The notes beneath the pieces are model-generated. The model saw nothing but the letters and a program-made list of their open reading frames with translations, searched no databases and was not told the DNA's origin. A DNA stretch of 47,307 nt, filler included, from Dimargaris cristalligena (taxonomy: Eukaryota), in assembly GCA_003614675.1 (NCBI GenBank). It is 2 parts of 2 records of this genome, joined end to end, with 100 filler letters (N's around TTAATTAATTAA, not from the genome) between each part and the next. Parts side by side here need not be neighbours in the genome. Positions count along the whole stretch, not along the records: positions 1 to 23,623 come from ML002606.1; 1 more part is not named here. One strand, given 5' to 3'. A program made the translations under genes and the position numbers. Every line of letters starts with the position of its first letter. Positions within the stretch are counted from its first letter, which is position 1. Below, piece by piece: positions 15,139-32,146 of this stretch.

Positions 15139-17589
15139 CTAGTTATGGATATTCCAAGTGGACAGCCACTTCCGCGACGTTAATTCCTTCGCCGGATAAT
15201 CAAACCCGAAGGTGAACGGCGAGAAGTACATAAACACCGCCGCGGCCATGGCCGCGAACCCCAGAATCATTGAATCGTGGAATTTACCGTTAAACAGCCG
15301 GCGTCCGAAATGGTCCACCATGAAAGCCAGGAACAGCATGGCGAAGTAGACCGCGGGGAAATAATGGTGTAGATAGGTGACTCGGCCCATGATGAAGAAG
15401 GGGAAGTAGTGGAGGGCCCATCCGCCCCACAGCATTTTCGAGGTATGAAGGAATTGGTCCCATTCGCCGTCGGCTACGATAACGGCTTCACCAGCACCCG
15501 GTCCGCTCTTGGTGGTCGGTGGCGGAGGCGCCCAGTCGACCGATTGGTAACCGCGCACGCGGCGCACCGTGTAGTACAGGAGCAGGAAGGGGAACACCAA
15601 GAGGGCGGCCGTACTCGTCCACCAAATAAACGGATTACCCAGTAGATAGTACTTGACGCGGGCATCGTCCCAGCCGCACATACGCAGACCCAGGATCAAG
15701 AAGGGCCACTCGATGGGTTCGGAAGACAGAATATCAATCTTGTCCCGGTTGGGCACCAGCGCGTTGTTGGTCACGGCCATGGCCACGTTGAGGTGGACGA
15801 GGTCGTCCAGGAAACTCGACTTGAACATGCTGGGGGGAGCGGCCTCCAGTTTTTCGTGGCGGTGGTACTCGACGTTCCACAGGTTGGAGGTATCGTCGCG
15901 ATTCTTACGGTCGCAGGTTACTTCCTGTTGCTTGTAACCCCACTGCGGCAGGGTATCGCGGTTAGAGCGGAGTAGGCAACCCAGGCGCACGTGGCGCAGG
16001 CGGAACCGGGTGAGTAGGGAACGGATCTGGTCGGGCTTGTTGCTCTTGCCGGTCTGGACATCATCGTAGATCTCCACCTTCCAGTGGTCAAAAACATCGC
16101 CGAGGGTACGGTTTCCGTAACCGCTCACTTCGTAGTCCGTTTTGGTAACGGGGGCCTCGATGGCGTGGCTGTGCAGGTTAGCGCCGGTGTTAACATGGGC
16201 CAAACGCACAATCGATCCCTCGCGGATGTACTCGATACCTTCTTCAGGGATCTCGGGTTCGCCGTGGGGTTTAAGAATGATGAAGTTGTTGTTGTCGTCC
16301 TTGTGGCTGTAGCAAGTGATCTGCTGCTGCTTGGAACCTTCGGGATATTTGTGGGGATGAGAGTGCAGTAGACCACCGCCGCGGGGGTTGCTCTTCAGGG
16401 TCACCGTAGAGCCGAACGCGACGTTCAATGGGTTCTCCTTGAGGTTAGAACCCTGAAGCTGGGCCTGGAACAGGGAGGACATGGTGGCATCACCGGACCC
16501 ACTGCGGCGCAGGATAAAGAAATGGATCTTGAAGCAGATCATATAAATCAGGATAGGCAGGACAATGAGGCCGACAATACGACCGGTCCAGTGGTAAGCA
16601 TACCGGCGCCAGTTGAACTTCTTTTCGCCCAACATCCAGTAGAGCTGCTCGATGGTGTAGATACCAGCCAGGCTGACCACGAAGAAACCGACCCACTTGC
16701 TGCTGGACACGAGCCCCAGCGATCCACCGGTCAGCAGCAGCCACTTCCACCAGTGGAAGGAGAAGGGGTGGTGCCGTTGGTTATGGAAACCAGTCAGACA
16801 GTACAGGCTCAGGGCGGTAAAGAAGAGTAACATGGCATCCAACAGAATAAAGCGACTGATGGTGGCCAGGGCGTTATCAAAGAGCACGAACACAGCGGCC
16901 AGAATAGCGGCATTGCGGGACATCTTCAGGTTCAGGGCGGTGAAGTAGGCCAACGGGATCAGGCCCACGCCGAAGGCGGCGTTAAAGACCCGCATGACGG
17001 TGTAGTTGACGGTATCGGGGTAGTCCGCACCGGACTTGAATTCGAAATTACCGCGGTAGCCCCCCAACAGCCCGCTCAGCCCCACCAGCATCTTAGCTAG
17101 CGGTGGGTGGACATCGTGGTAGAAGGTCCCCTTGAGGTAGTGGGAGCCGAACTTGCCAAAGTGGGCTTCATCCCACACCACAAACTTACTCGCGGAAATG
17201 CGGTAGAAGCGGGTGAACATGGCCAGCAGGGTCAGAATGGTCGGGATCAGCCAGTAATCATTCTCGTACCAGTACATTTTGAGCTGGTTGGGGCGAAGGG
17301 AAGGGAGGTATCAAGGGGGGATATGGTAGGTCATTTTTCGGTGTAATTAATATGAAATTAAGGGTTAGTCAGGGGCGTAGAAATGGACAGACGGTGATGG
17401 GGGTTGGATCCAGCAGGGGCCTGTTTAAAGGTACTCAGAGTTAGATGGAGGTTAGTGCGCTAGGCTCAAGACCACTCAGTTGAGTTGACTGAGGACGGCA
17501 ATTGTATCGTTACGACCCCTAATAGCACAAGTATCATAACCTGTCTGGCGCATAGAAGCCTGGGGCCAGATGAGATTAGGTCGTCCGGA

Positions 17590-20219: not shown

Positions 20220-22438
20220 TTACGATCTGGGATGGGTCAAGACCTGGTTTTGACTGTCATAACGCTGACCGCCCTGGGTGTCCCCGTTCCCTTGGCCCCG
20301 GTGGTGGTGGTACTGGTTACCGTTACCATGGCCATTGTTGTAGCCATTGACATTCTGGTGATACGTCTGGTTATAACCACCACGGCCGCGGCCCCGACCA
20401 CCCCGACCTCCGCGGTTACCACCACTATAGCCACGGCTATTGTAGTTGTACCGGTGGTAGCGGTTGTTAGACTGGGCCTGACCGAAAGTCTCCACGTTCA
20501 ACTTGCGCTCCTCATGCATACGGGATCGACGTTCGTCGGGTCCCAAGTGCTGCTGGGTGACTTCAGTGCGCTCCTTGGTCTCGCAGGAAATGTTATCAAA
20601 GAAGGAACTACTCTTGTTGTAAAAAGTGTCGGCGGGGGGAATCACCACTTCTTCCGCGCCACTGCCACTGCCCTTCCCGGTAGTGGACGCTGATCCCTTG
20701 CGAGAGGTCTGGCTGGCCTGGGCAGTAGCGGCACTGGTTGCGATATTGGCAACCGCGGGGGTAGAAGTAGTAGCAGCGGGGGTAGAGGCGGCAGTGCTGT
20801 TGTCATCATCGTGCACAGCCAGCTTGACAAACTCCTTCAAGAGATCATCCTTATTGAACTTGGCGTTGGAGGATTCAAAGTCAAAGTCAGACTTGGGGAT
20901 ATAAATGCGCTGGTTGTTGTAGCGGTTACCAGTAGGCCGACGACGATAGCCGCGCCCCCGACCGCGTCCACGATAGCCACCTTCCTGACCAGAGTAGCCG
21001 GCATCCGATGAAGGACCGACATTCTCAATGGCACCGGAGTCGCTAGGACGGGGACCCTCGTTACCAGCGGAGGCCTGGTCACGCTGCGGCATCTGAGCAG
21101 AATCACGGTCATCACCCTGGATGGGACCAGAGGACATGGGTGGTTCGGGGCCTTGGCCCATAGGCTCATTCATGGGCGGAGGAATGGGCACTCCGTTGTT
21201 GAACTATTAGTCATTAAGAGGCAATTCATCAGCAGTAAAGAATACAAGGTGAGTTTTTAGAATTCACTATAATGACGGTCGGCCACTGCAGAGAGCACCA
21301 GTAGTTAAACTGGTAAGCCTTAACGTAGCTTGGAGATTCAGAAGGAAGGCAACATGAAATAATATCATCATCGTGGGTAAGACTGCGGCAATTAGGAGTC
21401 CGCGAGTTATCATCATTATCAACCCATGAGCAGGGTAGGGTAGGGGGAGAGGGGTTCTGACTAAAATACGCCGAAGTGATCGGTATACAAAAGAGAGGAA
21501 TCGTTGGTTAATAGAGAGTAGTACTTACGTGCTGAGGCATGGGCATATGGGGATGATTCCAGTAGGGACCAGCCACACCCGAGGGGGGCATCATGTAGTG
21601 AGGATGGGGCGGGCCAGCAGGGTAGCCGGGATGCGGGGGCATGCCGACAGGCGGGTAGGCCTGTTGCTGAGGGGCAGCATTGGAACGGGGAGCAGGGCCC
21701 GACGACTACATTCGAAAAGAAGGATATCCGCGAATGGGGCGATGGTTTGGGTAAATGAATGAAGCATGGTAAAGAAGAAGAGGGTTAGCAACATAATATA
21801 CTATCAGTATAAACGAATGTGGGGTCAAATAAATGGGTAAGGGATCCATAAGGGGGTCATTTTGGCCAAGGTCAGAAGGAAGGCAACATATAATTATTCT
21901 CAACAGCCACTACACGAAGTAGCGTTTAGACACACGTTTTCATCCGCAATTTTATCATCAGTCCAGGCTAGATCCAAAAATGAGAGGGAGCTGGCGTAAA
22001 GAACGGAAGTTGAGGGAGAGGCTGGAGATGAAGACCGGACCTAAGCAAGGTCGACATCATCCAAATCCTCTCCCTACACCTCCGTTAGTTCCACAACAGT
22101 ATATCCATTTATACATATATGACGCTTACCCCGAGAATAGCCGGGTCGTTGGGGATGGACGGGGGGGGAGGAGCGGGCTTGGGGGCTTCTTCGGGCTCTT
22201 CCAAACGAATGTCAATGACGTCAGTAGCGCGGAACTGGATGAACTCGAAGACCTCGTCAGACGCGGGGATCTCTTCGTCGGGGTCACCCCCCTTACGGCC
22301 CTCAGTGCCCATGGAGCGCACCTGCTCCAGAGCCACGGTCGAATCCTGCTCGTTAATCTCGTGCAGAATCCCCAAGTACCGGATGTTGGACTTGGAGATC
22401 AGCGAGATGCGCGAACCATACAGAGAGTCGGCCTTCAT
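20220..22438 (-). CDS. SCD6: Scd6/LSM14 (RAP55) mRNA decapping activator / P-body protein (3 exons, ~489 aa)
   Basis: Exons 22438-22130, 21705-21529 and 21203-20220, all phase 0 with GTAAG donors and TAG acceptors. Domains: LSm14 (GSRISLISKSNIRYLGIL...VRSMGTEGR), FDF (DFDFESSNAKFNK), FFD (YNKSSSFFDNISCE), TFG (EERKLNVETFG) and RGG repeats. Confidence 0.95.
21335..21420 (-). ncRNA. Intronic box C/D snoRNA, snR52-type guide for 18S Am420 (yeast numbering), in SCD6 intron 2
   Basis: Minus strand reads gata-ATGATGA(C)...ATGATGA(C')...TGTTGCCTTCCTT-CTGA(D)-atc, with a short GAT/ATC terminal stem. The guide is complementary to the conserved 18S sequence AAGGAAGGCAGCA (one G.U); the D+5 rule points to the A equivalent to yeast A420. 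Confidence 0.85.
21872..21961 (-). ncRNA. Intronic box C/D snoRNA paralogue with the same 18S Am420 guide, in SCD6 intron 1
   Basis: Minus strand reads cTGATGA(C)-TAAAATTGCGGA...ATGTTGCCTTCCTT-CTGA(D). The guide plus D box (18 nt) is identical to the intron-2 copy, and the sequence just after box C is similar. Confidence 0.78.
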
Positions 22439-23570
22439 GCTGGAGAAGATGGAAAGGGGAGGAGATGTTCTGATCTGAGAGTATATCTAGTGGCTAAGTT
22501 AGCTCTCTAGGCGCGTGTTCCGATTAATCGCACAGTTGGGAGACTGGATGATGAACAAGACACGAGGTAATAAACTCAGGCGTGGGCAGCGAGATGACGA
22601 CTGCAGATGGGAAAGGGCCCCACACACAACACAACTAAAACACCGGGAAAGGGACGAGGGAGGAAAAGCGAAAGTTAGCCTTACACAAAGGAAGGTAAAG
22701 GAAAGGAAAGGCAAGCGATGAAGAAACAAGCGGGACAAAGCCGAGGGAGGGGGAACTAATAAGAGAAGGGAAAGAAGGGGGTTTAACGAGGGGGAGGCAG
22801 TCCAGATGAGCAGCCTTACTACCAGTACTAGGAACTAGGCTTCCCCCCCCCCTTGACAGCATATAGCCAGCCAACATATACACTACTAGGTAGGATAGGC
22901 TGTATGCGCTGCCTATACTACGGAGAATGGGTCACCAGGGGACTGCCGCCTTTACCCTGTGGGATCCTCTTTCCCACCCAGCCGTAAAAAATAGTACCAA
23001 GGATGGAGCAATCACATTGGGTACAGTCCAGATAATCCCAACCAACTGTGGGCTAGTGAGAACTTACCGGAATGATGAACAAGGCCAGCCACTCGTGTCC
23101 CGCGTACAATAGCTAGGGCCGAAACTACAAATACAAGAAGAGGGGGAGGGGATTACCAAGAATGGTAGTCGAAAGGGGTGTGTGGATGGAGGCGGGGAAG
23201 AAAAGCACGCCCTCTCACAATAGGTTTACAAAAGATTCACTACTCTAAAAGAGAAGGGAAGAGAGGGAGAGGGCTTACTGAAAAAAAGCCCCCTCCCATT
23301 TCATCAAGTCTCCCCAACTATAAATATATATATATATATATACACCCCTAATCACAGCAAATCATCTCTCGCTGGCCGCCTGCGTCTTTGCAAAAATGAA
23401 TTCCCGATTTGCTACTAATAATTCCTATCGAATGTCCGCAAAGTGATTTTTTTTCTTCTCGTTAACACCAAATTTTCCTTGAGTAGAAATTTTTTTCCAG
23501 TTGTCACGACGACTTTCAGGTCAGCCGATCTGGCTAAGGCTCTACCAAAATATACCATCCTTATGGAGGG

Positions 23571-32067: not shown

Positions 32068-32141
32068 GGTCGCATGGCCAAATTGGATAAGGCACCTGAC
32101 TACGGATCAGGAGATTGCAGGTTCGAGTCCTGCTGCGATCG
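32068..32141 (+). tRNA. tRNA-Arg (anticodon ACG), intronless
   Basis: Acceptor stem GGTCGCA/TGCGATC with discriminator G; D-arm TGGCCAAATTGGATAAGGC; anticodon arm CCTGA-CT-ACG-GA-TCAGG; T-arm GCAGG-TTCGAGT-CCTGC. Confidence 0.97.
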
Positions 32142-32146
32142 CATAA

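What the first reader, a model, noticed from the sequence alone, without database searches (positions are those of the whole stretch)
21335..21961. Twin snR52-type C/D snoRNAs, one in each intron of SCD6/LSM14
Seen: both introns carry TGATGA...ATGTTGCCTTCCTT-CTGA on the sense strand, with an identical guide plus D box and divergent interiors. Established: this guide is antisense to conserved 18S AAGGAAGGCAGCA; D+5 gives yeast Am420, which snR52 guides, and snR52 is an independent Pol III transcript in S. cerevisiae. Inference: here the guide is intronic and was duplicated intron-to-intron in an mRNA-decay gene, coupling rRNA modification to SCD6 splicing. The diverged D'-side regions may have different or orphan targets.
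Basis: partly seen in the sequence, partly recalled or inferred. Interest (0 to 1): 0.75.

Follow-up and report, generated by a model that had tools for sequence, protein, structure and literature searches.

The report
Twin intronic snR52/U83-type C/D snoRNAs
Two small guide RNAs of a well-known family, predicted to direct methylation of one conserved adenosine in 18S ribosomal RNA, sit one each in two consecutive introns of an SCD6/LSM14 gene of an early-diverging fungus, an arrangement already known in other fungi and in animals.

Summary
An exact 18-mer (guide plus D box) occurs twice on the minus strand, each 60-70 nt downstream of a TGATGA C box, with 0 matches expected by chance.

Each copy lies in the sense strand of a separate intron of an LSM14/FDF gene. 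Both introns are supported by alignment to a related protein.

Rfam places the copies nearest snoU83 and snoZ13_snr52. Both score below the curated cut-offs, but they share those families' guide and D-box register.

Between the boxes the two copies are no more alike than shuffled sequence. Both therefore look constrained.

The organism is related to Dimargaritales (Zoopagomycota), not an ascomycete.

Intronic snR52/U83 homologues are already published:
- N. crassa CD42
- A. fumigatus Afu-200
- human U83A/U83B in RPL3 introns 5 and 7
- sponge RPP0 introns

Not tested: expression, this species' own 18S, and orthologous introns. No convincing target was found for either D' side.

Verdict: a real, ordinary new member of a known kind, of low to moderate interest.

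The parts
22130..22438 (-). Host gene exon 1 (ATG at 22438): Scd6-like Sm (LSM14) domain
   Evidence: Pfam PF12701 E 6.5e-28. It is 84% identical to Tieghemiomyces P0121.
21706..22129 (-). Intron 1 of the coding region, 424 nt, GTAAGC...TGTAG; holds copy A
   Evidence: The exon 1 to exon 2 junction fits P0121 and the intron-less homologue L002.
21864..21970 (-). snoRNA copy A (C box to D box is 21872-21961, 89-90 nt)
   Evidence: Rfam snoZ13_snr52 32.0 bits (cut-off 47), E 0.001 for the region and 0.041 for the window; snR56 21.5 bits.
21955..21961 (-). Copy A C box, CTGATGA
21926..21929 (-). Copy A candidate D' box, CTAA (one mismatch to CTGA)
   Evidence: It is aligned with the CUGA D' of snR56 in the Rfam alignment. 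No target found.
21908..21924 (-). Copy A internal hairpin CGCUAC/GUAGUG between D' and C'
   Evidence: This helix is present in the minimum-energy and centroid folds.
21902..21914 (-). Copy A 13-nt stretch complementary to the 18S sequence directly 5' of the methylation target (possible accessory pairing)
   Evidence: it pairs fully (2 G-U) with the variant seen in 11 of 48 rDNA loci. The variant seen in 34 of 48 gives an A-C mismatch.
21900..21905 (-). Copy A candidate C' box, TGTTGA
   Evidence: aligned with the same motif of snoU83D.
21876..21888 (-). Copy A D guide, TGTTGCCTTCCTT
   Evidence: Forms 13 bp (one G-U) with 18S AAGGAAGGCAGCA.
21872..21875 (-). Copy A D box, CTGA
21529..21705 (-). 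Host gene exon 2, 177 nt, Pro/Gly/Met-rich linker
   Evidence: Open frame, 67% GC, 68% identical to P0121 in the matching position.
21204..21528 (-). Intron 2 of the coding region, 325 nt, GTAAGT...CTAATAG; holds copy B
21334..21421 (-). snoRNA copy B (C box to D box is 21338-21416, 78-79 nt)
   Evidence: Rfam snoU83 RF01179 36.9 bits (cut-off 50), E 0.0003 for the region and 0.012 for the window.
21410..21416 (-). Copy B C box, ATGATGA
21392..21395 (-). Copy B candidate D' box, CTAA
   Evidence: No target found.
21365..21370 (-). Copy B C' box, TGATGA
21342..21354 (-). Copy B D guide, identical to that of copy A
21338..21341 (-). Copy B D box, CTGA
20220..21203 (-). Host gene exon 3 with the FDF domain, FFD/TFG boxes, RGG repeats and the stop codon
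   Evidence: Pfam PF09532 E 7.4e-13. Best hit is the Tieghemiomyces Scd6 protein, 59% identity. ORF end.

Best explanation
[quoted passage not shown] Each lies in the sense strand of its own intron of the SCD6/LSM14 gene of a fungus related to Dimargaritales.

Inferred mechanism: the host pre-mRNA is transcribed by Pol II. The core snoRNP proteins (Snu13, Nop56, Nop58, fibrillarin) assemble on the kink-turn formed by the C and D boxes. After splicing and debranching, exonucleases trim the intron down to the protected RNA of about 80-100 nt. This biogenesis route is established knowledge for intronic snoRNAs and was not tested here.

The 13 nt upstream of the D box then pair with 18S rRNA AAGGAAGGCAGCA. 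Fibrillarin would methylate the 2'-OH of the A paired to the fifth guide nucleotide. That is the site called Am420 in yeast, Am417 in N. crassa and Am415 in A. fumigatus.

The two copies are redundant for this site. They are most likely old paralogues kept by selection on boxes and guide. Their D'-side halves have no assignable methylation target. These halves may be vestigial, or may provide accessory pairing next to the target.
For: 1. The exact 18-mer (guide plus D box) occurs twice, with 0 expected by chance.
2. Both copies have a perfect TGATGA and CTGA, 78 and 89 nt apart. Copy B has a perfect internal TGATGA; copy A has TGTTGA.
3. Of 8 C...D box pairs in the whole window, only these 2 have an rDNA-complementary 10-mer abutting the D box.
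4. In an Rfam scan of all 4227 families over the whole window, they are two of the three non-tRNA matches at E<=0.05 (the third lies antisense to the tRNA gene) and the only snoRNA matches. They match snoU83 (36.9 bits) and snoZ13_snr52 (32 bits), with the identical ...UGCCUUCCUUCUGA guide and box register.
5. Both lie in the sense strand inside introns validated by homology.
6. Interior similarity is at shuffle level while 18 of 18 plus 6 of 6 functional positions are identical. This argues for constraint on both copies.
7. There is no run of four or more T within 80 nt downstream of either D box, so no Pol III terminator like that of an independent Pol III gene.
8. Published homologues with the same guide site are intronic and were cloned or detected as RNAs: N. 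crassa CD42 (92 nt, intron, 18S-Am417, D guide) and A. fumigatus Afu-200 (91-nt cDNA, intron 3 sense).
Against: - Both Rfam scores are below the curated gathering cut-offs (36.9 against 50; 32 against 47). Nothing but the tRNA passes at gathering.
- Whether the RNAs are made, and whether this species' own 18S carries the target, could not be tested here.
- The 48 of 48 rDNA loci that hold the target were selected by that very motif, so they are not independent support.
- Terminal stems are only about 3 bp.
- Copy A has C instead of a purine before UGAUGA.
- Fold energies are not exceptional: z -1.83 for copy A and +0.27 for copy B. This is usual for C/D snoRNAs.
- None of 5 metagenomic LSM14 loci carries the guide. 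These are distant, at 40-62% identity, and L002 has no introns at all.
Confidence: 0.85

Rival explanations
1. Only one copy is a working snoRNA. The other is a decaying or poorly expressed paralogue. Copy A is the weaker candidate, with a non-purine before the C box and a degenerate C' box.
For: Copy A has CTGATGA and TGTTGA where copy B has ATGATGA and TGATGA. A further degenerate piece resembling the C'-to-guide part lies 95 nt downstream in intron 1, so decay products may exist here.
Against: The interiors have diverged to shuffle level, yet the 18-nt guide plus D box and the 6-nt C box core are identical in both copies. A pseudogene of that age should have lost them. Copy A also has the better terminal and internal pairing.
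Confidence: 0.1
2. The RNAs are made from their own promoters inside the introns (Pol III as for yeast SNR52, or Pol II), not by processing of the spliced intron.
For: S. cerevisiae SNR52 is widely used as a Pol III promoter. This is recalled knowledge; I saw only the listing of papers. N. crassa has 9 independently transcribed C/D snoRNAs out of 55.
Against: There is no T run of four or more within 80 nt downstream of either D box. Both copies lie in the sense strand, one per intron, at least 112 nt from each splice site. The N. crassa and A. fumigatus homologues are listed as intronic. Promoter elements were not searched for with a tool.
Confidence: 0.04
3. The repeated motif is not an RNA gene. 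It is a chance repeat or an intronic regulatory element of SCD6.
For: One C-box...guide pattern match in 2.9 million viral contigs turned out to be a chance hit in coding DNA. Such strings therefore do occur by chance in very large collections.
Against: Zero matches are expected in this window. Both copies have full box sets at the correct spacing and match snoRNA covariance models over their whole length.
Confidence: 0.01

Closest known systems
S. cerevisiae snR52 and Rfam family RF00335 (snoZ13_snr52)
   Same: Box C/D snoRNA with the same ...UUGCCUUCCUU guide abutting CUGA, so the same 18S site. A CGGA motif sits about 7 nt after the C box in the family consensus, and GCGGA is present in both copies here.
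   Different: Copy A scores 32 bits, below the 47-bit cut-off. The copies here are intronic, whereas the yeast gene is an independent Pol III unit (recalled). No guide for the large-subunit site Um2921 was found; snR52 is listed for that site. There are two copies instead of one.
Human SNORD83A/SNORD83B (U83A/U83B) and Rfam snoU83, snoU83B, snoU83D
   Same: Same guide and D-box register in the Rfam consensus. Two paralogues sit in two different introns of one host gene, RPL3 introns 5 and 7. Sponge homologues sit in two introns of RPP0 (passage read in PMC3412847).
   Different: The host is a ribosomal-protein gene in animals and an mRNA-repression/decay gene here. Copy B scores 36.9 bits against snoU83 (cut-off 50).
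Fungal clan CD_19: N. crassa Nc CD42 and CD41, A. fumigatus Afu-200
   Same: Nc CD42 is 92 nt, intronic, guides 18S-Am417 from the D guide, and is listed as homologous to snR52 and U83. Afu-200 is a 91-nt cDNA in intron 3 (sense) of Afu1g12390 and guides Am415. [quoted passage not shown]
   Different: Afu-200 also carries a Gm1422 guide and Nc CD41 a Gm1423 guide. No such guide is present anywhere in this window. Here both members keep the same D guide. Whether their host genes are SCD6 orthologues could not be established.

Membership tests
Box C/D snoRNA | C box RUGAUGA near the 5' end and D box CUGA near the 3' end, 60-130 nt apart | tested here: met
   Copy B has ATGATGA...CTGA over 78 nt. 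Copy A has CTGATGA...CTGA over 89 nt, with a perfect core but C at the R position.
Box C/D snoRNA | Short terminal stem that brings the C and D boxes together | tested here: inconclusive
   Only 3-bp stems, as marked in the Rfam alignments (GCC/GGC and GAU/AUC). The copy A fold pairs its two ends; the copy B fold does not.
Box C/D snoRNA | At least 10 nt of rRNA complementarity ending at the D or D' box, with the target at the fifth pair | tested here: met
   13 bp (one G-U) with AAGGAAGGCAGCA directly upstream of CTGA. The target was seen only in rDNA of other eukaryotes, which were selected by that motif. This species' own 18S was not seen.
Box C/D snoRNA | Internal C' and D' boxes | tested here: inconclusive
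   C' is perfect in copy B and TGTTGA in copy A. D' is only a CTAA candidate in both, with no target.
Box C/D snoRNA | Accumulates as a stable RNA of about 70-120 nt bound by fibrillarin, Nop56/58 and Snu13 | not testable with these tools
   No run on record as RNA holds the stretch.
snR52 / Z13 / U83 family (Rfam RF00335, RF01179, RF00593) | Score at or above the curated gathering cut-off | tested here: not met
   32.0 against 47 (RF00335), 36.9 against 50 (RF01179), 16.8 against 35 (RF00593).
snR52 / Z13 / U83 family (Rfam RF00335, RF01179, RF00593) | D guide ...UGCCUUCCUU directly before CUGA, selecting the yeast-A420-equivalent adenosine | tested here: met
   Identical to the consensus in the printed alignments for both copies. 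The N. crassa homologue is annotated with the same site and a D guide.
snR52 / Z13 / U83 family (Rfam RF00335, RF01179, RF00593) | Second guide for large-subunit Um2921 (S. cerevisiae snR52 only) | tested here: inconclusive
   No complementarity of 10 bp or more at a conserved large-subunit site was found. The only complete large-subunit rDNA available came from an unidentified eukaryote (L049/L052).
Intronic snoRNA (one per intron, processed from the spliced intron) | Sense orientation inside a spliceosomal intron, one snoRNA per intron | tested here: met
   GT..AG introns, with exon 2 confirmed by 68% identity to a related protein. One copy lies in each intron.

The most novel reading that the evidence does not exclude
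The pairing of an snR52-type snoRNA with the SCD6/Sum2 host gene is ancient, shared from Zoopagomycota to Aspergillus if Afu1g12390 proves to be the SCD6 orthologue. On this reading the two copies are kept because their non-guide halves differ in function. For example, copy A's 13-nt stretch between D' and C' would pair with 18S immediately 5' of the target and boost methylation, in the manner described by van Nues et al. 2011, while copy B's D' side would serve another, still unknown target.
Probability: 0.12. Interest if true: 0.45.

Novelty: new member of a known kind. Interest (0 to 1): 0.22.

Why it matters
It adds two probably unannotated snoRNA genes to a poorly studied early-diverging fungal lineage. 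It also supports the view that the intronic location of the snR52/U83 guide is the common state and the yeast Pol III gene the derived one. An mRNA-repression gene as host, rather than a ribosomal-protein or non-coding host, is a small curiosity. It opens no long-standing question.

Tried and rejected
- Whole genome of the window: none is held.
- Sequencing runs: 5 DNA holders were listed and no RNA holder.
The species' 18S therefore remains unseen.
- Viral contigs: the 18S motif gave 0 hits. The C-box...guide pattern gave 1 hit, a chance match inside phage-like coding DNA with no other snoRNA feature.
- Metagenome scan with exon 1: 5 LSM14 loci were found and 0 of 5 hold the guide. They are distant (40-62% identity) and L002 is an uninterrupted ORF. 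They say nothing about close relatives.
- Searching five bacterial assemblies that carry fungal rDNA contamination for the guide gave 0 of 5.
- D'-side targets. I scanned for at least 10 bp (at most 2 G-U) against 48 rDNA loci, and ran a D'-anchored scan over 4 candidate D' boxes. Only chance-level or rule-breaking hits came back. One example is 11-12 bp to 18S near position 150, but with G-U at the would-be target pair and a CTTA box. Another is 11 bp to 18S near position 956, but 4 nt away from the CTAA box.
- Duplex energies of the interiors against the 45 nt flanking the target: the best case was copy B against the upstream flank, with 18-70 of 1000 shuffles as good. Sixteen tests were run without correction, so I did not count this as evidence.
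- A guide of the snR56/Gm1428 type: 0 matches in the window with up to 2 mismatches.
- The identity of the A. fumigatus host gene Afu1g12390 was not recoverable from the library.
- Literature on SCD6 or Sum2 as a snoRNA host: one unrelated paper, then none.
- Literature on snoRNAs in Zoopagomycota: 3 papers hold both words. The one I checked mentions none of snR52, Scd6, LSM14 or Dimargaris.
- The putative 5'-UTR intron holds no snoRNA match.

Full report
**Observation.** On the minus strand the 18-mer ATGTTGCCTTCCTTCTGA occurs exactly twice, at 21338-21355 and 21872-21889. No further site matches with up to 2 mismatches, and 100 dinucleotide-preserving shuffles gave 0 matches. Each copy is preceded by a C box: ATGATGA at 21410-21416 and CTGATGA at 21955-21961. 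The C-to-D spans are 78 and 89 nt. In the whole window, both strands, there are only 8 TGATGA...CTGA pairs 50-134 nt apart. In 2 of those 8, the 10 nt abutting CTGA are perfectly complementary to eukaryotic rDNA, and those 2 are these copies.

**Host gene and introns.** The minus strand encodes a protein with a Scd6-like Sm domain (PF12701, E 6.5e-28, exon 1, 22130-22438) and an FDF domain (PF09532, E 7.4e-13, exon 3, 20220-21203). Between them lies a 177-nt GC-rich exon 2 (21529-21705). It is flanked by GT..AG introns of 424 nt (21706-22129) and 325 nt (21204-21528). Exons are 57-67% GC and introns 43%. Skipping exon 2 would keep the reading frame, so I checked that it is real. It aligns at 68% identity with the Tieghemiomyces parasiticus Scd6 protein P0121, exactly between the parts matched by exons 1 and 3. 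The exon 1 to exon 2 junction also fits the intron-less homologue L002. The two elements therefore lie in two separate introns, in the sense strand. They sit 168 and 112 nt from the 5' splice sites and 166 and 134 nt from the 3' splice sites.

**Organism.** Named best hits of the neighbouring PMT2-like ORF (15142-17310, minus strand) are Dispira parvispora (73%), Tieghemiomyces parasiticus (72%) and Dimargaris xerosporica (69%). Kickxellales follow at about 54%. The Scd6 exon 3 is closest to Tieghemiomyces, at 59%. The window therefore comes from a relative of Dimargaritales (Kickxellomycotina, Zoopagomycota), not from an ascomycete.

**What the elements are.** At Rfam gathering cut-offs only a tRNA is found. 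With E-value reporting, copy B (21334-21421) matches snoU83 RF01179 end to end at 36.9 bits (cut-off 50). Copy A (21864-21970) matches snoZ13_snr52 RF00335 end to end at 32.0 bits (cut-off 47), and more weakly snR56 at 21.5 bits. Over the whole window these two and a match antisense to the tRNA gene are the only non-tRNA matches at E<=0.05, at E 0.012 and 0.041. The printed alignments show the family consensus ...UGCCUUCCUUCUGA identical to both copies, in the same register to the D box. Formal Rfam membership is therefore not met, but the defining guide and box arrangement is.

The guide TGTTGCCTTCCTT forms 13 pairs (one G-U) with 18S AAGGAAGGCAGCA. The fifth pair from the D box selects the A in AAGG[A]AGG. 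The N. crassa homologue Nc CD42 is annotated with exactly this kind of guide: 18S-Am417, 12 pairs, D guide, homologous to snR52 and U83 (Table 1 of PMC2780460, passages read). The numbering Am420 for yeast is recalled, not checked here.

**Both copies look constrained.** Between the C box and the shared 18-mer, the 65 and 54 nt align with 34 identities. The shuffle mean is 31.4, and 193 of 1000 shuffles did as well or better. Against that background, 18 of 18 identical positions in guide plus D box, and 6 of 6 in the C box core, are best explained by selection on both copies. The alternative is convergence on the same function. There is no run of four or more T within 80 nt downstream of either D box, so no Pol III-type terminator. 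With the sense orientation and one copy per intron, this favours release from the spliced intron. That release step is inferred from general knowledge of intronic snoRNAs and was not shown here.

**The D'-side halves.** Both copies have GCGGA 6-7 nt after the C box. The Rfam snR52/Z13 consensus has CGGA at the same place. Both have a CTAA that could be a degenerate D' box. I scanned both RNAs against 48 eukaryotic rDNA contigs found as contaminants in bacterial assemblies. These include several complete 18S genes but only one complete large-subunit gene, from an unidentified eukaryote.

No canonical D' target emerged. The best hits either leave a gap between duplex and box, or put G-U at the target pair. 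They are as frequent as chance predicts by my rough estimate, not by a formal test. No snR56-type guide for Gm1428 exists in the window. No guide for the large-subunit site Um2921, for which snR52 is listed in PMC3511168, was seen.

One feature may matter. Copy A's 13 nt at 21902-21914, between D' and C', are complementary to the 18S sequence that ends 3 nt before the methylation target. The pairing is complete (2 G-U) for the ...CTACTACATCC variant, found in 11 of 48 loci. It has an A-C mismatch for ...CTACCACATCC, found in 34 of 48; the remaining 3 loci differ otherwise. van Nues et al. [quoted passage not shown] The same stretch also forms an internal hairpin, and this species' 18S is unknown, so I leave this as a hypothesis. 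Duplex-energy shuffles were not convincing.

**Comparison with what is known.** The intronic location is not a novelty.
- Nc CD42 is intronic.
- A. fumigatus Afu-200 is a 91-nt cloned cDNA lying in intron 3 (sense) of Afu1g12390, predicted to guide Am415 and Gm1422 (Table 1 of PMC2377427).
- Human U83A and U83B lie in the fifth and seventh introns of RPL3. [quoted passage not shown] 'Twins in two introns of one host' is thus a known pattern for this very family.
[quoted passage not shown] It defers the clan's history to Supplemental Section S9, which I could not open (PMC5824354, passages read).

What differs here is the host gene, the lineage, and the fact that both members keep the same D guide. 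I found no text naming SCD6, Sum2 or LSM14 as a snoRNA host. I also could not establish what Afu1g12390 encodes. Supplements and papers outside the library may say so.

**What could not be tested.**
- Expression: no RNA holder was listed.
- Conservation in orthologous introns of close relatives: no whole genome is held. The one metagenome scan returned only distant LSM14 genes, 0 of 5 with the guide and one without introns.

**Verdict.** These are two genuine-looking, redundant, intronic box C/D snoRNAs of the snR52/U83 kind in the SCD6 gene of a Dimargaritales-like fungus. I put confidence at about 0.85 that both are snoRNA genes. This is a new member of a known kind. Interest is about 0.2.

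Noticed in passing
window 21779-21806 (minus strand), intron 1, 95 nt downstream of copy A: A third, degenerate piece resembles the C'-to-guide part of the snoRNAs. It is 75% identical to the copy B reference over 28 nt, shares ATGTTGC, has no D box, and overlaps a GCTAAC branch-point-like motif. It could be a decayed partial duplicate or chance.
   Followed up: partly
window 22004-22084, intron 1, upstream of copy A: An imperfect inverted repeat (hairpin) draws weak hits to several unrelated miRNA precursor models on both strands, at 15-20 bits and E 1-6. Its significance is unknown.
   Followed up: no
window 22440-23066 (minus strand): A possible 5'-UTR intron of the SCD6 gene: GTAAGT at about 23066, GCTAAC at about 22503, and CAG directly before the ATG. 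No snoRNA match lies in it. A 12-nt string CTTGTTCATCAT occurs both just before the putative 5' splice site and inside the intron.
   Followed up: partly
window 23320-23345: An (AT)n microsatellite lies upstream of the SCD6 gene.
   Followed up: no
window 32068-32142 (+): tRNA-Arg (anticodon ACG), Rfam 64.4 bits.
   Followed up: yes
window 15142-17310 (minus strand): A protein O-mannosyltransferase 2-like ORF (PMT, MIR and PMT_4TMC domains by precomputed Pfam). The Tieghemiomyces PMT2 and Scd6 hits both list a longest contig of 21473 bases, hinting that the two genes are also neighbours there.
   Followed up: no
By my recollection of 18S sequences they include plant-like and fungus-like types. 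They look like contaminants.
   Followed up: partly
L001 6904-7001 (minus strand): The C-box...guide pattern matches once in a 244-kb viral contig, inside what reads as coding DNA without other snoRNA features. It is a chance hit and a useful control.
   Followed up: yes
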